Shown one piece after another: positions 15,042 to 51,517 of a DNA stretch of 64,000 bases. The notes under the pieces are model-generated. The model saw only the letters and a list, made by a program, of their open reading frames with translations. It searched no databases and was not told the DNA's origin. Made by a program: the position numbers and the translations under genes. The DNA is from Lachnospiraceae bacterium (lineage in GTDB: Bacteria > Bacillota > Clostridia > Lachnospirales > Lachnospiraceae). How positions within the stretch are numbered: position 1 is the first letter of the stretch; each line of letters begins with the position of its first letter. The stretch lies in contig JAFUMV010000081.1 in NCBI GenBank assembly GCA_017482485.1, forward strand, positions 4,981 to 68,980, read 5' to 3'.

Positions 15042-18000
15042 ATGGATATGTTTTTTACAAAAAGAAAGCTGGAAAACCGAAAAGAAGAGCTAAAGCTGTA
15101 TCGATATCGTGATGCTGCAGGTTTGACAGGATTTGTGATAAAGGAAGATTTACAGGGAGTCGTTAATCCAAAGGTTCCTGTATCTTATGAAGGTTGGGAT
15201 AACATGCAGGTGGGAGACACCTGGCGTGGCAGGGATCGTTTCTGGTGGCTGCATGTGGATGTGGAGATTCCCGCAGCCTGGGCCGGGAAGCGCGCTGTGG
15301 CGGTTTTCGATTTCGGAATGACTGGCGGAGGAAATAATTCCGGTTTTGAATCTCTTCTTTACATAAACGGAGAGCCTTATCAGGGCGTGGATGCCAACCA
15401 CAGGGAAGTTTTTTTTAAAGAAGATCTTTATGGAAAAAAAGTGAGTCTGACTTTTCGGCTTTGGTCCGGCCTTGAGGGAGGCGGCGTGCCCAGAGAAATG
15501 GTGCATGAGTTTAAGACGGCGCAGCTGGGCTGGCTGGATGAGGCGGCGGATGATCTGATTTATATGTCCGAAATGATTTTGAAAGCCATCGATCAGCTTG
15601 CGGAAAGCGAGCCTGTGCGGCATCAGCTGCAGGCGAATCTGGATAAGGCCATGAGTCTGATCGACTGGTCCTATCCGGGCAGCGAAGCTTTTTATGCATC
15701 TGTAAAAGCGGCGGACGACTGTATCAATGGACTCATTGACGAGATGGGAAAAAAATCTGATGTCAATGTTTATGCAGTGGGACATACCCATATCGATACC
15801 GCATGGCTGTGGCGTTTGAAGAATACAAGAGAAAAGTGTTCCCGTTCCTTCTCCACGGTAATGCGCCTGATGGAAATGTTTCCGGAGTATTACTTTTTGC
15901 AGACCCAGCCTCAGCTGTATGAGTATATCAAAGAGGATTTTCCGGAGATTTATAAACAGATCAAAGCAAGGGTGGCAGAAGGACGCTGGGAAGCGGACGG
16001 CGCCATGTGGGTGGAAGCGGACTGTAACCTGACCAGCGGTGAATCCCTGACCCGTCAGATTCTGATTGGCTCCAAATTCATTCAGGATGAGTTTGGCAAG
16101 GACGTGCATTATCTGTGGCTGCCTGACGTATTCGGCTATTCCTGGGCCCTGCCCCAGGTGCTGAAAAAATCCGGCATCGACATGTTCATGACCACCAAGA
16201 TCAGCTGGAATCAGTATAACAGAATGCCTCATGACACATTTAAATGGAAGGGCATTGACGGCAGTGAAGTGCTGACGCATTTCATCACAACACCGGAGCC
16301 CTGGAATCCGGCAGACAGCTGGTTTTATACCTATAATGGCCTGTTGGAGCCCAGAACCGTAAAGGGTGTCTGGGACGCCTACAGTGAAAAGGAAATGAAT
16401 CAGGATCTGCTGATATCCTATGGTTATGGTGACGGCGGCGGCGGTGTCAACCGTGACATGCTGGAGCATAGACGCAGACTGGACCGCATTCCCGGTTTAC
16501 CCAATATAAAAACATCCACGGCCGGTGCCTATTTTGAAAAACTCAAAGAAAATGTGAAAAATACGGACAGCTATGTGAACACCTGGGATGGAGAGCTGTA
16601 TCTGGAATATCATCGGGGAACCTATACCAGCCATGCCCACAACAAGCGCATGAACCGGAAGATGGAGCTGTTATACCGGGAAGCGGAATGGCTGACCGTG
16701 ATGGATGCGCTTCTTGCCGGCGGCAATCTGGCACTTGCCCAGCAGGAAAAGCTGACGACGGGCTGGAAGCATATTTTAACCAATCAGTTCCATGATATCA
16801 TTCCCGGCTCTTCCATTTTTGAAGTTTATGAAGACTGTAAGAAGGATTATGAATGGATTGAATCCATCGGCCGCCAGGTGGAAGAGGATTTCTTTGCGCA
16901 TGCGCGTCAGAATGTAGCGACTTTGGAGAATGCCGGACAGGTATCCAGGGGAGATGCGGTTTATACGGTCATCAATCCCAACGGTTTTGCGGCGGATGGT
17001 GTTGTGCTGCTTGAGGATGTCTGCGCAGACAGTGTGGTGCTGGCAGACGGCACAAAGCCTGCGGCACAGAAGACGGACAGAGGCCTGTTGGTGGCGTTAA
17101 AGCAGGTGCCTTCCATGGGATTTGTAAAGCTGACTGTTTTGGAGAAAGCTGCTGCAAAGAAAGATACGGACTGTGTGGGTTTGGCAGATGCAGCGGAATG
17201 TGGCTGTGCAGATGAGCGTGACAGCGCATTCGCATATTCAAAGAACGGCCGAAGGCTGGAAACGCCTTTCTATCAGATTGTCCTCAATGAGAGCGGCCAG
17301 ATTGCCCGCCTGTATGATAAGGAGTTTGAACGGGAAGTATTGCCTGAAGGTGCGTGTGCAAATGTGCTGCAGATGTTTGAAGACAAGCCGATGGGCAACG
17401 ATGCCTGGGATATTGATATTTTTTATCAGCAGAAGATGCGGGAAATCACGAATCTGACTTCCTTTGAAATTGCAGAGTGCGGTCCCGTCAGAATGGTGAT
17501 CCGCATGCGGTATGCGTATATGAATTCCACCATATGGCAGGATCTGATTCTGTATGCACACAGCCGCAGAATTGACTTCGTGACAAAAGTGGATTATCAC
17601 GAACAGCATCAGCTCTTAAAAGCGGCATTTCCTGTGGATATCCGTACCACCTACGGAACCTTTGATGTGCAGTACGGCAATGTGCGCCGTCCGAATCACT
17701 GGAACACATCCTGGGATCAGGCGAAGTTTGAAACAGTGGCACATCGGTTTGCGGATCTTTCCGAGTATGGCTATGGTGTCAGCCTGTTGAATGACTGCAA
17801 GTATGGACATGATGTGAAAGATAATGTGCTGCGCATCACGCTGATTAAGGCGGCAACTTATCCTGATCACAGTCAGGATATTGGGGAGCATGTATTTACT
17901 TATGCACTGCTGCCTCATGGCGGTGACTTCGTGGAAGGCCGTGTGGTGCAGGAAGCAAGCATGATGAATCAACCACTGCATGTGGTGCAGGGAAATTTGC

Positions 18001-18356
18001 AGATATCGGCAGGGCAGAAAAACACCGGCAGTCTGCAGAACCTCGGAAATCTGCCGCTTGGCACTGACAGCTTCCTTTTCTTTGATAAGGACTGTGTGGA
18101 GCTGGACGCGATCAAGAAAACGGAAGACGGAAAATATATTGCAGTCCGCTTCCACGACTTTACCGGCGGCACAAATAAGGTGCGCGTAAATACCGGATTT
18201 GCATGGAAGAAGTATTGTGTCAGCGACCTGCGGGAGCGTCCGCTGACACAGTGGAAAGAGAGCAAAGCAGTCGGCGCGCAAGAGGGGCAGGGCTGCGATT
18301 TTGTCAGACTGACGGTGAAGCCTTATGAGATTGTGACGCTGTTGTTTGAGGTGTAG
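15042..18356 (+). CDS. GH38 alpha-mannosidase
   Basis: GHTHIDTAWLW, WLPDVFGYS, GYGDGGGG, GELYLEYHRGTYTS, NQFHDIIPGSSI and LLNDCKYG motifs. Confidence 0.95.
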   Translation: MDMFFTKRKLENRKEELKLYRYRDAAGLTGFVIKEDLQGVVNPKVPVSYEGWDNMQVGDTWRGRDRFWWLHVDVEIPAAWAGKRAVAVFDFGMTGGGNNSGFESLLYINGEPYQGVDANHREVFFKEDLYGKKVSLTFRLWSGLEGGGVPREMVHEFKTAQLGWLDEAADDLIYMSEMILKAIDQLAESEPVRHQLQANLDKAMSLIDWSYPGSEAFYASVKAADDCINGLIDEMGKKSDVNVYAVGHTHIDTAWLWRLKNTREKCSRSFSTVMRLMEMFPEYYFLQTQPQLYEYIKEDFPEIYKQIKARVAEGRWEADGAMWVEADCNLTSGESLTRQILIGSKFIQDEFGKDVHYLWLPDVFGYSWALPQVLKKSGIDMFMTTKISWNQYNRMPHDTFKWKGIDGSEVLTHFITTPEPWNPADSWFYTYNGLLEPRTVKGVWDAYSEKEMNQDLLISYGYGDGGGGVNRDMLEHRRRLDRIPGLPNIKTSTAGAYFEKLKENVKNTDSYVNTWDGELYLEYHRGTYTSHAHNKRMNRKMELLYREAEWLTVMDALLAGGNLALAQQEKLTTGWKHILTNQFHDIIPGSSIFEVYEDCKKDYEWIESIGRQVEEDFFAHARQNVATLENAGQVSRGDAVYTVINPNGFAADGVVLLEDVCADSVVLADGTKPAAQKTDRGLLVALKQVPSMGFVKLTVLEKAAAKKDTDCVGLADAAECGCADERDSAFAYSKNGRRLETPFYQIVLNESGQIARLYDKEFEREVLPEGACANVLQMFEDKPMGNDAWDIDIFYQQKMREITNLTSFEIAECGPVRMVIRMRYAYMNSTIWQDLILYAHSRRIDFVTKVDYHEQHQLLKAAFPVDIRTTYGTFDVQYGNVRRPNHWNTSWDQAKFETVAHRFADLSEYGYGVSLLNDCKYGHDVKDNVLRITLIKAATYPDHSQDIGEHVFTYALLPHGGDFVEGRVVQEASMMNQPLHVVQGNLQISAGQKNTGSLQNLGNLPLGTDSFLFFDKDCVELDAIKKTEDGKYIAVRFHDFTGGTNKVRVNTGFAWKKYCVSDLRERPLTQWKESKAVGAQEGQGCDFVRLTVKPYEIVTLLFEV

Positions 18357-18386
18357 TGAGCTGAAATCGTCCCCAAAACGGATATA

Positions 18387-18415
18387 TTGCCTTCTGTCAA
18401 AAAATGTGATAAGTT
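18387..18415 (+). promoter_or_regulatory. Candidate SigA promoter for the intergenic RNA
   Basis: TTGCCT-17bp-TAAGTT with an extended TG motif. Confidence 0.4.
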
Positions 18416-18565
18416 GTAAATATCTGAAACGACAGTTTTCGACTGTCATCTTATGATCTGAACCGAACGCCAGACAAATGGGTCAGTAGGTCATTTCGAG
18501 TGATTCCGTACAGGAACGGTATCACGCCCGATTCGGGCCGGATTTTTACACTTATCACTTTTTTG
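18398..18565 (+). ncRNA. Candidate structured non-coding RNA (closing stem plus four hairpins); family unassigned
   Basis: A ~27-bp imperfect inverted repeat (18398-18426 / 18539-18565) encloses hairpins GACAG/CTGTC, TGATCT/AGGTCA, GTGAT.CCGT/ACGG.ATCAC and GCCCGA/TCGGGC. It lies between convergent genes. Strand is inferred from the promoter only. Confidence 0.55.
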
Positions 18566-18680
18566 TTTGATGGAGATTTTTTATGAGTGTAGTGTTGACT
18601 GAAGCTGTGCCCGGTGTTGGGGCAACGGCAGATTTCTCAGCGCTGCAACAGCCCCGGTTTTGTATAAAGAGTTTGGCTTC

Positions 18681-20678
18681 TCAGATCTCTCCAATCAGAT
18701 ACCCCTGCCTGCCATATCTTAAAAAGATCGGCAGCGTATCAAGGGGCGCTTCCACTTCGTAAGCCTTTCCGCCTTCATAAACTTTTCCGGTTCCCGCATG
18801 GGTCCAGGAGGCGCCTGCAGGCAGATAGACCTGACGGCTTCTTGCCTTTTCGTGACAGACCGGAGCGACCAGGATATCGGAACCGTACAGATAGGAATCC
18901 GTGATGTCCCAGCATGCCTTGTCCTGAGGAAATTCATAGAACAGGGCACGCATGACGGGAGTGCCTTTTTCATGGGCCTGTTTCATCAGGCTTCTGGTGT
19001 AGTCGCGCATCAGCTCGCGGATACGGATGAATTTTGCCATAATCTGATAATTTTCCTCACCGAAGCTCCAGATCTCGTTGTCGTTGCCGCTGCCGTTTCT
19101 CTTTTTGCCGGATTTGTCAAAAATTTCAATGGAAGGCTCTCTGTTTCCATGGAGGCGCATAACGGGACAGAAGGCGCCGAACTGAAACCAGCGGACCAAA
19201 AGCTCGCGGAAGCCTTCATCCTCCACGTAACCGCCGCCGAAACCGCCGATGTCCGTGGTCCACCAGGGAATGCCGGAAAGCCCCATGTGAATACCGGCGC
19301 AGATCTGTTTGCGGAAGTCTTCATAGGTGGAGTGAATGTCTCCGGACCAGACAAGAGCACCGTAGCGCTGACTGCCTGCCCAGGCGCAGCGGATCAGGTT
19401 GACGATATCTTCCTGGCCGTTTTCTTTTTGCCCCTCATAGAAAAGGCGGGCGTATTCTCTGGGGTAAATGTTGCCGGCTTCCGCAACGGAGCCTGCATGG
19501 TAACGATAGGTTTCAAAATCATATCCGCCAAATTCCGGTTCCGCCTCATCCAGCCAGAAGGTTTTAACGCCCAGATCGGCATAGTTTTTCTTACATTTTT
19601 CCCAGACATATTTTCTGGTGCGGGGATTGGTGGCATCCATGAATACATTATTGCCTTCAAAAAGCATCTGTACATCGATGCCGGAATTGATTTTTACCAG
19701 AAGTCCCTGCTGTTTCATTTCCTGATAATTTTCGCTTTCCCAGGATACCTGAGGCCAGATGGATACCATGGTTTCAATTCCCATATCCTTAAGCTCCCGG
19801 ATCATGGCTGCAGGGTCAGGGAAAAATTCTTCGTCAAAGCGCCAGTCACCGCACTTGGGCCAGTGGAAGAAATCGATGACAAAAACATCCAGCGGAATGC
19901 CGCGCTTTTTGTATTCCCGGGCAACAGAAAGTACCTGCTCCTGGTTATAATAACGCAGCTTGCACTGCCAGAAACCGAGACCGTATTCGGGCATCATGGG
20001 TGCCGTGCCGGTGGCTTGGGCATAAGCTTCTTCGATTTCGGCGGGTGTGTCTCCTGCTGTGATCCAGTAATCCAGCTGTTTTGTGGATTCGGCCACCCAC
20101 TGCGTGGTGTTGGAACCGAAATGGACTTCGCCGATGGCCGCATTGTTCCATAAAAATCCATAGCCAAGACTGGAAATGTAGAATGGTACGCTGGCCTGAG
20201 AGTTTCGGTGCGCCAGTTCCAGATTACAGCCTTTTAAATCCATGATTTCCTGCTGATACTGTCCCATACCGTAGATTTTTTCGCCGGGCTGAGGAACAAA
20301 GCTTGCCTTTAACCGGAAATTTCCGCCTGCCAGAGGCTTGAAATGGCGGGCTTTTACCTGCAGGGCGCCGCCGTTTGGAATTTCCTGAAGCAGCACCTTG
20401 CCGTCCTGATTTTTGAAGGTGATCTGCAGGGCATTCCCCCAGAGATTGACGGAAAGCTCTGCCCGAAGCCTGCCGTTTTCGATGGAAGCACTCAGGTCAT
20501 CCAGAGTGATTTTTGCTTCTGTTGGAGCCGGGGGCAGCAGTGCAGCATTTTCCTCTCCGATATCATCCAGAATGCGGGAGCGGATGCGCAGGCTGTTTTC
20601 TCCCCAGGGAGTGAGCATGACGGTTTCGCCGTTTTCACGGAAAATCAGACTGCCGTCTTTTTCTTCAAAAAAATTCAT
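18681..20678 (-). CDS. GH31 glycoside hydrolase (alpha-xylosidase-like)
   Basis: GFWQCKLRY, WLDEAEPE (nucleophile region), WSGD, WTTDIGGF and MRLHG motifs. Start set at ATG 20678, behind AGGAGG. Confidence 0.92.
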   Translation of the reverse strand: MNFFEEKDGSLIFRENGETVMLTPWGENSLRIRSRILDDIGEENAALLPPAPTEAKITLDDLSASIENGRLRAELSVNLWGNALQITFKNQDGKVLLQEIPNGGALQVKARHFKPLAGGNFRLKASFVPQPGEKIYGMGQYQQEIMDLKGCNLELAHRNSQASVPFYISSLGYGFLWNNAAIGEVHFGSNTTQWVAESTKQLDYWITAGDTPAEIEEAYAQATGTAPMMPEYGLGFWQCKLRYYNQEQVLSVAREYKKRGIPLDVFVIDFFHWPKCGDWRFDEEFFPDPAAMIRELKDMGIETMVSIWPQVSWESENYQEMKQQGLLVKINSGIDVQMLFEGNNVFMDATNPRTRKYVWEKCKKNYADLGVKTFWLDEAEPEFGGYDFETYRYHAGSVAEAGNIYPREYARLFYEGQKENGQEDIVNLIRCAWAGSQRYGALVWSGDIHSTYEDFRKQICAGIHMGLSGIPWWTTDIGGFGGGYVEDEGFRELLVRWFQFGAFCPVMRLHGNREPSIEIFDKSGKKRNGSGNDNEIWSFGEENYQIMAKFIRIRELMRDYTRSLMKQAHEKGTPVMRALFYEFPQDKACWDITDSYLYGSDILVAPVCHEKARSRQVYLPAGASWTHAGTGKVYEGGKAYEVEAPLDTLPIFLRYGRQGYLIGEI

Positions 20679-20904
20679 GAGCAGTACCTCCTGTGTATTG
20701 TTGTGTGCGGCCATGAAAAAGGTGTATTGTCACTGAAACGCCGCAGCAGTTGATACTTGTAGAATATCGCAAAAAGGAATGGATTTCTTTCATAATTTTG
20801 CAGAAAAGTAATACGATCTTGATTATTGCGGTGCAAGGCTTTATAGTGTTAACTGGAAGGAAAAGGGATGCTCTCACAGTGACGCAGCGGGTGGAGAAAG
20901 ACGG

Positions 20905-21835: not shown

Positions 21836-24733
21836 TTGAAAGCGACAAAAAAGCTTGTTGTGGGCATTTTGGCCCACGTGGATGCCGGCAAAACAACGCT
21901 GGCAGAGAGCCTTTTATATAAAACGGGAAGCATCCGGAAAATGGGAAGAGTGGATCATCAGGATGCTTTTCTGGATACCGATGCAATGGAAAAAGCACGG
22001 GGCATCACCATTTTTTCCAAGCAGGCCCGCTTTGACCTGGGAGAGTATGAGATTACGCTTTTGGATACGCCGGGACATGTGGATTTTTCGGCGGAAATGG
22101 AAAGAACCCTGCAGGTGCTGGACTATGCGGTTCTGGTGATCAGCGGCGCCGACGGCGTGCAGGGACATGTGGAGACATTGTGGCGTCTTCTTGCCCGCTA
22201 TCGGATTCCGGTTTTTCTTTTTGTGAACAAAATGGACCAGCCCGGTACTGATGCGGATCGGCTGATGCAGGAACTGCAGGATAAGCTGGATAAAAAATGT
22301 GTGGCCTTTTCAACGGTGACAGAAGATGGGGCGGAAAAACAAAATGCAGCAGGCAGTACAGCGAAAAATCAGAGCGTCAAAGCAGATAAAGAGGGCTGGC
22401 AAACCTGTCAGATTTTGCCGCCGGCCGATTTTATGGAAAATGTTGCGGTTTGCGATGATCAGCTGCTGGAGCGCTATCTGGAGGGCGAAGAACCACAGGA
22501 TGAGGACATCGCAGTCCTGATTGTCCAGCGTAAGATTTTTCCATGCTTTTTTGGCTCGGCGCTGAAGGTGTTCGGCGTGGAAGAGCTTTTGAAGGGGTTG
22601 TATACCTGGCTGTGTCCGAAACAGTATCCGGAACAGTTTGGGGCAAGAGTGTTCAAAATATCCAGAGACGAGCAGGGAAAGCGCCTGACTCATATGAAAA
22701 TTACAGGCGGAAGTCTGAAAGCGAAGATGCTGCTTACGAACCGGCAGGAAGGGATGGAGAGCGAGCAGATCTGGGAGGAAAAGGCGGATCAGCTGCGGCT
22801 TTATTCGGGCGCCTCTTTTGTGCCGGCAGCGGAAGCTTCTGCGGGCATGATCTGTGCGGTGACCGGTCTGACGCAGACTTTTGCCGGTCAGGGATTTGGA
22901 ATTGATCGGGAAGTAGTGCTTCCCGTGCTGGAGCCGGTCCTGACCTATCGGATAGAGCTTCCTGAGGATGATGTGAAAAGTGATCCCCACAGCATGTATA
23001 TGAAGTTAAAACAGCTGGAGGAAGAAGAGCCGGAGCTTTCCGTGATCTGGCAGGAGGAGTCCAGGGAAATCCATGCGCAGGTCATGGGCGATGTACAGAT
23101 GGAAATTCTGAAAAACCAGATCAAAGACCGGTTTGGTGTGACCGCAGAATTCGGAGAAGGCAGCATTGTATACAAGGAGACCATTGCCGACAAGGTGGAA
23201 GGCGTGGGACATTTTGAACCGCTGCGCCATTATGCGGAGGTGCATTTGATTCTGGAACCGCTTGAGCGGGGAGCAGGCCTGCAGTTTGCTGCAGATGTAA
23301 GCGAAGATGTGCTGGACCGCAACTGGCAGAGACTGGTGCTGACCCATCTGGAAGAGAAAAAGCACAAAGGTGTGCTGGTTGGCGGTGAAATCACCGATAT
23401 GAAAATCACCCTGGCGGATGGCCGTGCCCATTTGAAACATACGGAGGGCGGCGATTTTCGGCAGGCCACTTACCGCGCGGTTCGACACGGGCTGATGAAT
23501 GCAGAAAGCGTGCTGCTGGAGCCGGTGTATGCGTTTACGCTGGAAGTGCCTTCGGAGAACATCGGCAGAGCCATGACAGACATACAGAAAATGCAGGGGA
23601 GCTTTGGACAGCCTTCGCTGGAAGGAGAATTTTCCGTGCTGAAGGGCAAAGCACCGGTGGCTGCCATGAGCGGTTATCAGCGGGAAGTTACCGCCTATAC
23701 GAAGGGACGCGGGAAATTAAACTGTGTGCCGGGCGGTTACGAGGTGTGCCACAACGCAGAGGAGGTGATTGAAAAATCCTCCTATGATCCTGAAGCGGAT
23801 CTGAAAAATCCGACAGGTTCCGTATTCTGTGCCCATGGCGCAGGCTTTGTGGTGCCCTGGTATGAGGTGGAAGAGTACATGCATCTGGAAAGCTGCCTGG
23901 CACCGAAGCTGACAGAGGAAGAAAAGCTGGCGCTGGCGGCCAGGCAGGCCGAAGAAGCGGCACAGAGCAAAGGGCGCCGGGAAGTTTCATTGCCGGAAGG
24001 CGTCAGCAACGAAGAGCTGGAAGAGATTTTTGCCCGGACCTATCATGCCAATAAGAAAGAGCGCTACAGTTATAAAAAGAAAAAAGAGCCGCCAACGAAT
24101 GTGACCAGACGCTGGTCAGGCCTGCAGAATGCTGCGGAAACCCAGCGGATGCCGGGGCAGAAGTCGGTTTCCTATTACAGCAACAAAAAGAATGTGCAGG
24201 ATACGACGGAATATCTGCTGGTGGACGGCTATAACATCATTTTTGCGTGGGAAGATCTGCGGGAACTGGCAGCGGTCAACATTGAAAGTGCCCGGAATAA
24301 GCTGATGGACATTCTGTCCAACTATCAGGGCTTTCATAAATGTGTGCTGATTCTGGTCTTTGATGCTTACCGCGTAGAAGGCGGTGTGGGCAGCGTTATG
24401 AAGTATCACAACATTGATGTGGTTTTTACAAAGGAAGCGGAAACTGCGGATCAGTATATTGAAAAAACGGCACATAAGCTGGGCCGGGAAAATCCGGTGA
24501 CGGTAGCAACCTCTGATGCGCTGGAGCAGGTGATCATTTACGGACAGGGTGCCCGCAGACTCTCCGCCAGAGAGCTTCTGGAAGAGGTTGAATTCACGAA
24601 ACAGCAGATTCGGGAAGTATGGCGCAAAAAGCACAGCGATGCCAAAAACTACCTGTTTGACCATCTGCCGGAGGACATGGTGGATATGGTGGAAGATGTG
24701 AGGCTGGGGCTGAGAGAGTTCGGTGAAGAGTAG
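21836..24733 (+). CDS. TetM/EF-G-like translational GTPase fused to a C-terminal NYN (YacP/Rae1-like) nuclease domain
   Basis: G motifs HVDAGKTT, RGITI, DTPGHVDF and NKMD; EF-G-like domains III-V; C-terminal LLVDGYNII...LVFDAY...ETADQYIE...VATSD. Confidence 0.9.
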   Translation: MKATKKLVVGILAHVDAGKTTLAESLLYKTGSIRKMGRVDHQDAFLDTDAMEKARGITIFSKQARFDLGEYEITLLDTPGHVDFSAEMERTLQVLDYAVLVISGADGVQGHVETLWRLLARYRIPVFLFVNKMDQPGTDADRLMQELQDKLDKKCVAFSTVTEDGAEKQNAAGSTAKNQSVKADKEGWQTCQILPPADFMENVAVCDDQLLERYLEGEEPQDEDIAVLIVQRKIFPCFFGSALKVFGVEELLKGLYTWLCPKQYPEQFGARVFKISRDEQGKRLTHMKITGGSLKAKMLLTNRQEGMESEQIWEEKADQLRLYSGASFVPAAEASAGMICAVTGLTQTFAGQGFGIDREVVLPVLEPVLTYRIELPEDDVKSDPHSMYMKLKQLEEEEPELSVIWQEESREIHAQVMGDVQMEILKNQIKDRFGVTAEFGEGSIVYKETIADKVEGVGHFEPLRHYAEVHLILEPLERGAGLQFAADVSEDVLDRNWQRLVLTHLEEKKHKGVLVGGEITDMKITLADGRAHLKHTEGGDFRQATYRAVRHGLMNAESVLLEPVYAFTLEVPSENIGRAMTDIQKMQGSFGQPSLEGEFSVLKGKAPVAAMSGYQREVTAYTKGRGKLNCVPGGYEVCHNAEEVIEKSSYDPEADLKNPTGSVFCAHGAGFVVPWYEVEEYMHLESCLAPKLTEEEKLALAARQAEEAAQSKGRREVSLPEGVSNEELEEIFARTYHANKKERYSYKKKKEPPTNVTRRWSGLQNAAETQRMPGQKSVSYYSNKKNVQDTTEYLLVDGYNIIFAWEDLRELAAVNIESARNKLMDILSNYQGFHKCVLILVFDAYRVEGGVGSVMKYHNIDVVFTKEAETADQYIEKTAHKLGRENPVTVATSDALEQVIIYGQGARRLSARELLEEVEFTKQQIREVWRKKHSDAKNYLFDHLPEDMVDMVEDVRLGLREFGEE

Positions 24734-50339: not shown

Positions 50340-50744
50340 ATGGACAAAGACAACAAAATCAGAATTGCCTGCATGCTGGGGGGAGCGGCACTATTTTTCT
50401 TCATCTGCCCTGCAATTTTCAAACAGTTACCGGAGGAAACCGGAGCGATCTGGCAGATGCTCTCCCTGATGATTATCAACCAGATCTTTATCGGCGTAGT
50501 GGGATGGCAGGCGAATTATCTGCCGAAATTCAATATTTACATTCCGGGTGTTATGATTGTGATTTATATCATTTCGGAGCTGGTTTTTTATGGCACAATC
50601 AGCTGGAGCATGGAACTGGAGTATTTACAGACCGGTTATATCTGCTATTTCCTGAAGAAATTCATCAGTATCAGACAAAAGCAGGAGGAAAAGAAGAAAA
50701 AGGACAATTTTCCGTCTTTTGTCAAAAATAATAAGAAAAAATAA
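50340..50744 (+). CDS. Hypothetical membrane protein with a Lys-rich tail
   Basis: RBS AAGGAG; about four hydrophobic segments. Confidence 0.75.
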   Translation: MDKDNKIRIACMLGGAALFFFICPAIFKQLPEETGAIWQMLSLMIINQIFIGVVGWQANYLPKFNIYIPGVMIVIYIISELVFYGTISWSMELEYLQTGYICYFLKKFISIRQKQEEKKKKDNFPSFVKNNKKK

Positions 50745-50791
50745 AAAGATATCGGCAGCTGCACAGTTTGCAAAGCTGCCGATATCTTTTT
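50743..50791. terminator. Bidirectional terminator
   Basis: AAAAAGATATCGGCAGCT/AGCTGCCGATATCTTTTT. Confidence 0.8.
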
Positions 50792-50794
50792 ATT

Positions 50795-51517
50795 TTAAAG
50801 GAAACCGCCATCAATGGTGATGATTTGCCCTGTCATATAGGCCGGCGCCTCTGCAAGCTGCAGCGCCAGTGCTGCGACTTCTTCCGGACGACCCAGACGG
50901 TCCGCCGGAATTTCCTCTATGAGCATCTGCATTTCCTCTTCGGAAAAACAGTGGTTCATGTCCGTGTCGATCACACCGCAGGCAATGGCGTTGACCAAAA
51001 TATTGCTGGGTGCCAGCTCCTTCGCCAGCGCCCTCGTCAGACTGTTGACTGCGCCCTTGGAGGCGGAGTAGGCTGTTTCCATGGAAGCGCCCACATTGCC
51101 CCAGACAGAGGAAATATTGATGATGCGCCCGCTTTTTTCATGAACCATCCGTGGAATTGCAAGCTTGCTGGTATAAAAACATGCATCCAGATTCGTGGAC
51201 ATGAGTCTGTGCCATTCCTCAGGAGTCATATCGGAAAGCAGGCCGATATGGGAGATTCCGGCATTGTTGATGAGAACATCCAGGCGGCCGATTTGGGAAA
51301 AAAGAGTTTTTACCGTTTCAAAATCGCCCATATCTCCCACAAACGGAGTGGCTGTAATCTTATGCCTGTCTGAAAGTGCCCGGCAGAGGGCATAAAGCTG
51401 CTCATGAGAATGAATACAGGTCAGATAAAGGTCGTATCCGGCGGCCGCGTAGGCGCAGGCAATGGCGCGGCCGATGCCGCGGGAGGCACCGGTAATTAGT
51501 GCTGTTTTATGCTGCAT
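50795..51517 (-). CDS. SDR oxidoreductase, FabG/YmfI-like
   Basis: TGASRGIG, NNAG, YSASK and VNAIACG motifs. Confidence 0.92.
   Translation of the reverse strand: MQHKTALITGASRGIGRAIACAYAAAGYDLYLTCIHSHEQLYALCRALSDRHKITATPFVGDMGDFETVKTLFSQIGRLDVLINNAGISHIGLLSDMTPEEWHRLMSTNLDACFYTSKLAIPRMVHEKSGRIINISSVWGNVGASMETAYSASKGAVNSLTRALAKELAPSNILVNAIACGVIDTDMNHCFSEEEMQMLIEEIPADRLGRPEEVAALALQLAEAPAYMTGQIITIDGGFL

What the first reader, a model, noticed from the sequence alone, without database searches (positions are those of the whole stretch)
18387..18565. Stand-alone multi-hairpin RNA candidate between convergent glycosidase genes
Seen: a ~27-bp imperfect inverted repeat encloses four adjacent hairpins within ~110 nt, and there is a plausible extended -10 promoter. 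Both flanking genes point toward it, so it cannot be their 5' leader or riboswitch. The outer arm includes the predicted -10 box, so part of the symmetry is DNA-level. Inference: a trans-acting ncRNA, or a miniature inverted-repeat or invertible element. It may match a known orphan gut-Clostridia motif (e.g. Clostridiales-1); I cannot run that search.
Basis: partly seen in the sequence, partly recalled or inferred. Interest (0 to 1): 0.65.

Follow-up and report, generated by a model that had tools for sequence, protein, structure and literature searches.

The report
Conserved five-helix orphan RNA-like element
Between two sugar-cleaving enzyme genes that face each other, a rare gut Lachnospiraceae bacterium has a 168-base sequence that folds into a long closing stem around four hairpins; a diverged relative keeps this fold through matching changes on both sides of several stems, so it is a real, undescribed structured element, probably a small non-coding RNA that also ends both genes' transcripts, though its role is untested.

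Summary
Window 18398-18565 folds into a 26-bp imperfect closing helix (P1) around four hairpins (H1-H4). The fold z-score is -6.1 on the + strand and -7.1 on the - strand. It lies between convergent GH38 and GH31 genes.

It is not Clostridiales-1 or any other Rfam family. There is no hit at E<=10, and a model built from three true Clostridiales-1 RNAs gives only 4.3 bits.

It is not a multi-copy repeat. The source metagenome holds one copy, and there is none in phage, plasmid, viral or other held DNA. It is not a leader, because the downstream 59-codon ORF has no relatives. No sample shows it inverted.

The key new result is a diverged copy in one metagenome run (X9). The core aligns at about 85% identity; P1 and the top of H1 differ much more. 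Of this copy's 203 bases I could read 154. It folds the same way. Of 44 pairs, 32 are unchanged, 6 changed on both sides and still pair, 2 changed on one side and still pair, 2 are broken and 2 have gaps. Two blocks of 17-18 nt are invariant.

Best reading (about 0.45): an undescribed structured RNA of roughly 150-170 nt whose closing helix with A6/U6 tracts also serves as the shared terminator. Rivals are a terminator only, or a relic palindromic mobile element. Expression could not be tested because no RNA runs exist.

The parts
15042..18356 (+). GH38 alpha-mannosidase gene, last gene of a DeoR-MFS-GH38 block. Its stop codon lies 41 nt before the element.
   Evidence: Pfam Glyco_hydro_38N/mid/C/C2, E 1e-88; ORF list; called genes in the same contig.
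18361..18388 (+). Promoter-like site: -35 CTGAAA, 16-nt spacer, -10 TATATT. It would start an RNA at about 18395-18397, just before the closing helix.
   Evidence: Consensus scan, 9 of 12 matches; 2 sites found against 0.7 expected in shuffles. This is inference only; expression was not tested.
18398..18426 (.). P1 5' arm: C-A6, then UGUGAUAAGU, GUAAA and AUCUG segments.
   Evidence: Folds on both strands. The GUAAA segment reads AUGUA in the X9 homologue, with a matching change in the 3' arm.
18431..18447 (.). H1: GACAGU(U)-loop-(G)ACUGUC.
   Evidence: The homologue has GACAAC-AUGUA-GUUGUC, so two pairs changed on both sides.
18453..18494 (.). H2: irregular 42-nt hairpin with internal loops. 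Two G.U pairs are kept on the + strand. It contains most of the invariant block 18480-18497.
   Evidence: The homologue has 4 substitutions: one in an internal loop, one in the hairpin loop, one at the loop-closing pair and one in the stem (18459). The only substitution of strain X4 inside the element (18484 C>G) lies in an internal loop.
18500..18525 (.). H3: GUGAU-U-CCGU-loop-ACGG-U-AUCAC.
   Evidence: In the homologue C18507-G18518 becomes U-A. The outer part is rebuilt by +1/-1/-1 indels into a 9-bp stem in a shifted register.
18526..18538 (+). H4: GCCCG-AUU-CGGGC, followed by CGGA-U5. This is the only canonical terminator-like site the scan found. It is invariant in the homologue.
   Evidence: Terminator scan; identical block 18522-18538.
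18539..18565 (.). P1 3' arm: CGGAU, U, UUUAC, ACUUAUCAC, U6, G.
   Evidence: The homologue reads UAGAU-UACAU-UUUUAUUAUUACAUUUUU, which pairs with its own 5' arm.
18583..18762 (+). 59-codon ORF with a GGAG 8 nt upstream. Judged spurious.
   Evidence: No Pfam hit. Only low-complexity matches among 1.84 billion proteins. Not called as a gene in the public contig. It runs 82 nt antisense into GH31.
18681..20678 (-). GH31 glycosidase gene, 665 aa (real start at 20678, not 20714). Its stop lies 115 nt from the element, with no terminator-like hairpin of its own in between.
   Evidence: Pfam; homologues are 665-668 aa; terminator scan finds none on the - strand; right flank 18566-18680 is not significantly structured.

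Best explanation
The element is a nucleic-acid fold kept by selection: a long A/U-rich closing helix bordered by an A6 tract and a U6 tract, around four hairpins, two of which carry invariant sequence blocks.

**Most likely mechanism.** It is made as RNA of about 150-170 nt.
- The RNA would be transcribed from the + strand, from the promoter-like site that ends 10 nt before the closing helix. This is inferred.
- It would end either at H4 plus U5 or at the closing helix plus U6. This is also inferred.
- Its 5' and 3' ends pair with each other, and H2 and H4 are displayed as recognition surfaces for a partner. The partner is unknown.

**Second role.** The same structure gives both convergent glycosidase genes their only terminator-like signals. 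Read from either side it is an A-tract, a stem and a U-tract. It therefore probably also serves as their shared bidirectional terminator.

**Shown here:** the fold, its statistical strength, single-copy status, absence from Rfam, and conservation of the fold with compensatory changes in one diverged homologue.

**Inferred:** transcription, the strand, the RNA ends, and any trans-acting role.
For: **The fold is strong.**
- z is -6.1 on + and -7.1 on -. The core alone gives z -2.9 and -3.9.

**A diverged copy keeps the fold.** It sits on a 203-nt contig of run X9; 154 nt were read.
- It folds into the same P1 plus H1-H4.
- In a structure-guided alignment of 44 pairs, 32 are unchanged, 6 changed on both sides and still pair (3 in P1, 2 in H1, 1 in H3), 2 changed on one side and still pair, 2 are broken and 2 have gaps.
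- On the MAFFT core alignment 95% of cells are paired, against 30-42% when partners are slid. Three pairs carry double changes, against 0-1 in the slid controls, and 14 of 500 shuffles reach this.

**Divergence is uneven.** P1 and the top of H1 are about half changed yet still pair. Blocks 18480-18497 and 18522-18538 are identical.

**It does not encode a peptide.** A net -1 indel in H3 means no small reading frame across it can be conserved.

**Signals for an RNA on the + strand.**
- A promoter-like site lies just upstream, and H4+U5 is the only terminator-like site the scan found.
- The two one-sided changes in the top of P1 pass through G.U pairs on the + strand, and the two G.U pairs of H2 are kept on the + strand.

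**Terminator role.**
- Neither flanking gene has another terminator-like hairpin.
- Relatives have plain A-tract/hairpin/T-tract terminators at the same place after GH31.
Against: - There is no expression data. No RNA run holds the stretch.
- Only one diverged homologue exists. One base in it is unread (a substitution somewhere in 18444-18449). Its outer P1 segment and its genomic context are unknown.
- Both strands fold about equally well (-62.2 against -60.5 kcal/mol; 4 against 3 G.U pairs).
- One substitution (18459 T>C) fits the - strand better.
- Equal folding on both strands also fits a DNA-level palindrome.
- The promoter match is weak (9 of 12; such sites occur by chance at 0.7 per 700 nt).
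- In the homologue the U-run after H4 starts 11 nt after the stem, so H4 is not a conserved canonical terminator.
- Compensatory-looking changes in palindromes can also arise by DNA-level template switching.
Confidence: 0.45

Rival explanations
1. It is only an unusually elaborate bidirectional intrinsic terminator or 3'-UTR structure for the convergent GH38 and GH31 transcripts, with no separate RNA product or trans function. Selection keeps the hairpins and U-tracts, and the rest is tolerated decoration that stabilises the 3' ends.
For: - It sits exactly between two convergent stop codons.
- The A6 and T6 tracts form the base of P1, as in ordinary bidirectional terminators of this window such as 50738-50796.
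- H4+U5 is terminator-like.
- There are no other terminator-like hairpins for either gene.
- Relatives have simple bidirectional terminators at the same spot.
- Both strands fold equally well.
- Covariation in P1 and H1 is what a terminator stem would show.
Against: - 168 nt with five helices is far beyond usual terminators, which are simple hairpins with 15-23-nt arms in this window.
- The P1 base next to U6 is A/U-rich.
- H2 and H4 carry 17-18-nt invariant blocks while the stems around them diverge by half, which points to sequence-specific recognition.
- H4 is not followed directly by a U-run in the homologue.
Confidence: 0.25
2. It is a relic of a small palindromic mobile DNA element. This would be MITE-like, of the hairpin-rich kind common in gut Lachnospiraceae, some of which carry Clostridiales-1. 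It would have inserted into an older terminator, and the inverted ends would be former transposase sites.
For: - It has 26-bp terminal inverted repeats, is 168 bp long and non-coding.
- It lies exactly at a synteny break: homology with relatives stops at the GH31 stop codon, and the neighbours differ.
- The fold is equally good on both strands.
- Earlier notes of this scan report many Lachnospiraceae MITEs with multi-hairpin cargo (unverified here).
- Its terminal 9-10-nt words are identical to the extended P1 of three Clostridiales-1 RNAs.
Against: - There is a single copy in the source metagenome and in all runs at 80% likeness.
- There is no other copy in the window or in 580 kb of held loci.
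- No target-site duplication is visible at the ends of P1.
- Only the three orthologous Clostridiales-1 loci share the termini among 185,579 species genomes.
- The X9 homologue does not keep that word; it reads TTATTAC instead of TTATCAC.
- Internal hairpin H1 covaries, which transposase binding at the ends does not explain.
- There is no hit in phage, plasmid or viral collections.
Confidence: 0.2
3. It is an invertible DNA switch. A recombinase flips the 124-bp interior between the 26-bp inverted repeats and so turns a promoter towards one or the other gene's antisense strand.
For: Inverted repeats of suitable length flank a short segment with weak promoter-like matches.
Against: - All contigs from nine runs that cover it, one at 46x depth, show one orientation and no strand-changing joints.
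- No recombinase is among the called genes within about 5-7 kb on either side.
- The interior is itself made of palindromes, which an inversion switch does not need.
Confidence: 0.03
4. It is a divergent member of the Clostridiales-1 RNA family (RF01699), or a cis-acting leader of the 59-codon ORF at 18583.
For: - It shares the GUGAUAAGU...ACUUAUCAC termini with three Clostridiales-1 RNAs.
- A GGAG lies 8 nt before the ATG of the ORF.
Against: - No Rfam hit at E<=10.
- 4.3 bits with a Clostridiales-1 model.
- Interior alignment z<=2.5.
- The core motifs are absent.
- The ORF has no relatives, is not called as a gene, and overlaps GH31 antisense.
Confidence: 0.03

Closest known systems
Clostridiales-1 RNA motif (Rfam RF01699; Weinberg et al. 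2010, PMC2864571)
   Same: It is an orphan RNA-like element of about 160 nt from gut Clostridia/Lachnospiraceae, with a closing helix around several hairpins. It is not tied to a downstream gene and often sits just after a stop codon. Three true members (L016, L047, L050) share the outermost 9-10 nt of the closing helix with this element.
   Different: - It has four enclosed hairpins instead of three.
- None of the conserved core words (AUGAGCAUG, CGGAAUGCGAAU, GGGAG...CACG) are present.
- It does not reach any Rfam threshold and scores 4.3 bits with a subgroup model.
- The shared terminal word is not kept in the X9 homologue, so it is probably coincidence.
Bidirectional intrinsic terminators between convergent genes
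   Same: An A-tract, a stem and a T-tract read alike on both strands, placed between two stop codons. It is the only terminator-like signal for both genes.
   Different: It is three to five times longer. The 'loop' is a set of four conserved hairpins, and the stem next to the U-tract is A/U-rich.
Hairpin-rich MITE/REP-like repeats of Lachnospiraceae
   Same: Size, terminal inverted repeats, multi-hairpin interior, host family, and position at gene 3' ends.
   Different: It is single-copy, has no target duplication and has no parent element. The only other copy known is a diverged homologue in another organism.
Small RNAs whose 5' and 3' ends pair in a long terminal stem (6S RNA, bacterial Y RNA/YrlA)
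   Same: A long terminal helix joins both ends, with a structured interior that could be a protein-binding platform.
   Different: There is no match to those Rfam models, no central bubble, no tRNA-like module, and no rsr or other partner gene seen nearby.

Membership tests
Clostridiales-1 RNA (RF01699) | Score at or above the Rfam gathering threshold (48 bits) with the family covariance model | tested here: not met
   No Rfam match at gathering score in the window or at E<=10 in 18300-18750. True members score 99-104 bits. A model built from those three gives 4.3 bits, E 0.29 per kb, below unrelated hairpins.
Clostridiales-1 RNA (RF01699) | Conserved core words in P3/P4 and a P1 plus three-hairpin architecture | tested here: not met
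   Interior local alignment to three members is not better than shuffles (z -0.4 to 2.5). This element has four hairpins.
MITE / palindromic mobile repeat | Several copies in the genome or in relatives, in unrelated contexts | tested here: not met
   - Only the self copy was found at 80% likeness in the source run X1 and in 16 other runs, apart from one diverged copy in X9.
- None was found in the window or held loci.
MITE / palindromic mobile repeat | Terminal inverted repeats flanked by a target-site duplication | tested here: inconclusive
   Inverted repeats are present. No direct repeat is visible next to them: the flanks are ...TTCTGT and TTTGAT.... No empty site is available for comparison.
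Bidirectional intrinsic terminator | A stem directly followed by a U-tract on both strands, downstream of both genes | tested here: met
   P1 is bordered by A6 (18399-18404) and T6 (18559-18564). H4+U5 was flagged by the scan. Actual termination is not testable here.
Bidirectional intrinsic terminator | A simple hairpin of ordinary size (about 30-60 nt) | tested here: not met
   It is 168 nt with five helices. Other terminators in the window are single hairpins with 15-23-nt arms.
Stand-alone small RNA gene | Conserved structure with compensatory base changes among homologues | tested here: met
   One diverged homologue shows 6 double and 2 single compensating changes in 44 pairs, with 2 broken. 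Three double changes fall in the core, with 95% of cells paired against 30-42% when slid. The sample is only two lineages.
Stand-alone small RNA gene | Own promoter and terminator, and a detectable transcript | not testable with these tools
   A promoter-like and a terminator-like site exist, but no RNA sequencing run holds the stretch.
Invertible promoter (inverton) | Both orientations present in sequence data, and a recombinase nearby | tested here: not met
   A single orientation appears in all contigs of nine runs. The neighbouring genes are glycosidases, regulators, an MFS transporter, an EF-G/NYN protein and an alarmone synthetase. Contigs, unlike reads, can miss a minor form.
cis-regulatory leader / riboswitch | A real gene downstream on the same strand | tested here: not met
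   Both neighbours point inward. The 59-codon ORF has no family and no relatives, and is not called as a gene.

The most novel reading that the evidence does not exclude
This is a new family of structured non-coding RNA of about 170 nt: a closing helix, four hairpins and two invariant 17-18-nt blocks. It would be confined to a small lineage of gut Lachnospiraceae and transcribed from its own promoter between convergent glycan-degrading genes. It would act through a protein or RNA partner that recognises H2 and H4, and it would double as the bidirectional terminator of its neighbours.
Probability: 0.35. Interest if true: 0.5.

Novelty: new member of a known kind. Interest (0 to 1): 0.36.

Why it matters
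Gut Clostridia hold many orphan structured elements such as Clostridiales-1 and Gut-1. Whether these are RNA genes, terminators or mobile DNA is unsettled.

This one is a clean case. It is single-copy, absent from Rfam, and shows compensatory changes in a second lineage. That makes it a defined candidate for a new small RNA or a new kind of complex terminator next to glycan-utilisation genes.

Its known distribution is narrow: two lineages in a handful of metagenomes. No function can yet be assigned, so for now it matters as a catalogue entry and as a test case for telling RNA-level from DNA-level conservation.

Tried and rejected
The rest of the genome could not be searched or downloaded.

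**Database and collection searches that found nothing relevant**
- Rfam: the whole window at gathering score and the spacer at E<=10 gave nothing. ARAGORN found nothing.
- BLAST of the spacer within the window found no other copy.
- Phage and plasmid collections (distant blastn) gave only chance 29-43-nt hits. Clostridiales-1 itself is also absent there.
- Four viral-contig scans gave zero hits.
- No RNA runs hold the stretch.

**Synteny**
- GH31 relatives at about 79% nt identity share the AraC and EF-G/NYN side, but homology stops at the GH31 stop codon.
- GH38 relatives are at most 65% identical and are followed by plain terminators or by the next gene.
- P0002 turned out to be a distant GH31 with an internal duplication.

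**The two capped collection scans**
- The genome-contig scan for the terminal words returned 44 loci, about the number expected by chance. The window's own genome was not among them. Three loci were orthologous Clostridiales-1 RNAs and three were rpoC coding sequence.
- The metagenome scan for the doubled ATCTGAAMCGA word returned 26 chance or tandem-repeat hits. In hindsight this was a poor use of the single scan, because the conserved blocks became known only later.

**Ideas tested and dropped**
- Operator idea (GTGAT...ATCAC palindromes): not enriched in the window.
- Covariance models of the element (R2, R3) found only the element itself. The one other hit (L006) is an unrelated giant palindrome.
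- The 59-codon ORF has no relatives.
- A 34-nt, 88% match in another organism's contig (runs X1-X3) runs on into unlike sequence on both sides. I treated it as chance.

Full report
**Observation**

Folded as RNA, 18398-18426 pairs with 18539-18565. This closing helix (P1) has 26 bp: C-A6 against U6-G, GUGAUAAGU against ACUUAUCAC, GUAAA against UUUAC, and AUCUG against CGGAU. It carries two bulged U and one U.U mismatch.

P1 encloses four hairpins: H1 18431-18447, H2 18453-18494, H3 18500-18525 and H4 18526-18538.
- The MFE is -62.3 kcal/mol on the + strand (shuffles -39.0 +/- 3.8, z -6.1) and -61.6 on the - strand (z -7.1). None of 200 shuffles does as well.
- The four hairpins alone give z -2.9 and -3.9.
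- The fold survives in the context of the whole spacer.
- The right-hand spacer 18566-18680 is not significantly structured.

**Surroundings**

On the left is a GH38 alpha-mannosidase (15042-18356, +), the last gene of a DeoR-MFS-GH38 block. On the right is a GH31 enzyme (18681-20678, -; 665 aa like its relatives). Beyond it lie AraC and an EF-G/NYN fusion gene.

No gene is called in the 324-nt spacer of the public contig. The 59-codon ORF at 18583 has no Pfam family and no real relatives among 1.84 billion proteins.

The consensus scan finds one terminator-like site, H4 followed by CGGA-U5 on the + strand. It also finds a promoter-like site, CTGAAA-16-TATATT at 18361-18388, which ends 10 nt before P1. 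The extended -10 proposed inside the arm was not flagged. Neither gene has another terminator-like hairpin.

It appears in about ten metagenome runs, all DNA.

**Known families**

Rfam 15 gives nothing at gathering score for the window and nothing at E<=10 for the spacer.

A scan of 185,579 species genomes for the terminal words (TGTGATAAGT, 120-150 nt, ACTTATCAC) gave 44 loci, about the chance number. Three of them are true Clostridiales-1 RNAs (99-104 bits). Their P1 is extended to GUGAUAAGUCC...GGACUUAUCAC. They are orthologous, each starting a few bases after a DUF2207 gene, so they count as one event.

The resemblance stops at the termini.
- Interior alignment is no better than shuffles.
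- A covariance model of the three scores the element at 4.3 bits, less than unrelated hairpins nearby.
- The diverged homologue described below reads TTATTAC where this element has TTATCAC.

I therefore take the shared word as coincidence. The element is not a Clostridiales-1 member.

**Copy number and mobility**

- There is no second copy in the window.
- There is none in phage, plasmid or viral collections.
- There is none in 580 kb of held loci.
- In the contigs of the source run (depth about 10) and of 16 other runs, laid at 80% likeness, only the element itself appears. It is always in one orientation and without strand-changing joints.
- Strain X4 (about 98.7% identical) has one substitution inside the element. 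It lies in an internal loop of H2.
- Relatives with GH31 at about 79% nucleotide identity share the AraC/EF-G side. Their homology ends at the GH31 stop codon, and they carry ordinary bidirectional terminators there.
- The closest GH38 relatives are only 65% identical and are followed by ordinary terminators or by the next gene.

The element therefore lies at a synteny break and is single-copy. This argues against an active MITE and against an inverton, but not against a relic insertion.

**The homologue**

Run X9 holds the identical copy and also a 203-nt contig at twice the depth. That contig aligns to 18444-18538 with 11 substitutions and 3 indels. By choosing stretches on which the local alignment broke at different places, I read 154 of its bases from the loose ends. 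One substitution somewhere in 18444-18449 remains unread.

The sequence folds into the same architecture.

| Helix | This element | X9 homologue |
|---|---|---|
| P1 second segment | GUAAA/UUUAC | AUGUA/UACAU |
| P1 top | AUCUG/CGGAU | AUCUG/UAGAU |
| H1 | GACAGU...ACUGUC | GACAAC...GUUGUC |
| H3 | C18507-G18518 | U-A; outer part rebuilt by indels |
| H4 | GCCCGAUUCGGGC | identical |

In a structure-guided alignment of 44 pairs:
- 32 are unchanged;
- 6 changed on both sides and still pair;
- 2 changed on one side and still pair;
- 2 are broken;
- 2 fall on gaps.

The formal count on the MAFFT core alignment gives 95% of cells paired, against 30-42% for slid partners. Three pairs have double changes against 0-1 in the slid controls, and 14 of 500 shuffles do as well.

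Blocks 18480-18497 and 18522-18538 are identical, while P1 and the top of H1 are about half changed. The net -1 indel in H3 excludes conserved small ORFs across it.

**Interpretation**

The fold is maintained, and some parts are constrained in sequence. That pattern fits a functional structured RNA better than a plain terminator or a decaying insertion.

The strand remains uncertain.
- For the + strand: the promoter-like site, H4+U5, the one-sided changes in the top of P1 that pass through G.U, and two conserved G.U pairs in H2.
- For the - strand or for DNA: both strands fold equally well, H1 extends by three pairs on the - strand, and 18459 T>C keeps a pair only on the - strand.

I commit to the following reading, at about 0.45. 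It is an RNA of about 150-170 nt from the + strand whose ends pair in P1, and the same structure (A6, stem, U6) acts as the shared terminator of the two convergent genes.

The rivals are a terminator or 3'-UTR structure only (0.25), a relic palindromic mobile element (0.20), and an inverton, leader or Clostridiales-1 member (together about 0.06).

**Limits**

- No transcript data exist.
- The comparative evidence rests on a single partly read homologue of unknown context.

Noticed in passing
L006:2440-2790 (also L007): In a relative, the 488-nt gap between the AraC gene and the EF-G/NYN gene holds a near-perfect giant palindrome of about 350 nt. The central 161 nt fold at -114 kcal/mol (z -15.8). 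In this window that gap is only 31 nt. It is unrelated in sequence to the element studied here.
   Followed up: partly
L047:5357-5521, L016:998-1165, L050:7645-7811: Three orthologous Clostridiales-1 RNAs (99-104 bits) start 5 nt after the stop codon of a DUF2207 membrane-protein gene. Their P1 is extended to 11-12 bp (GUGAUAAGUCC...). In L047 the RNA is followed by further repeated hairpin units before an Hsp90 gene.
   Followed up: partly
window 18408-18441: A contig of another organism (different depth ratio in runs X1, X2 and X3) matches these 34 nt at 88% and runs on into unlike sequence on both sides. This may be chance or a fragment of a related arm. It is unresolved.
   Followed up: partly
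window 18619-18665: A + strand hairpin GGGGC...GCCCC followed by GGUUUUGU lies just before the GH31 stop. It is terminator-like by eye, but the scan did not flag it and the region's fold is not significant.
   Followed up: partly
window 20679-20714: The longest GH31 ORF (677 aa) starts 12 codons upstream of the start used by all 665-668-aa relatives. The real start is probably at 20678.
   Followed up: partly
window 21836-24733; L054:60-2876: An EF-G/TetM-like GTPase fused to a YacP/Rae1 NYN domain is conserved in relatives. In L054 it sits directly upstream of a GH38 gene, so the GH31/AraC pair looks like an insertion or rearrangement in this lineage.
   Followed up: no
L003:6155-7215 (also L004, L005): Downstream of GH31 in a relative, a GH42-like gene is split into two short ORFs of 140 and 213 aa. 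It is probably a pseudogene.
   Followed up: no
L076:1407-1648, L065:1826-1944, L061:5766-5859: The metagenome pattern scan hit arrays of units repeated about every 36 or 66 nt that contain ATCTGAAMCGA. These are tandem or CRISPR-like repeats in unrelated environmental contigs.
   Followed up: no
L085:417-2921: An 834-aa GH31 carries an internal duplication: two overlapping stretches (L085 806-1436 and 1434-2924) align to the same part of the window's gene.
   Followed up: no
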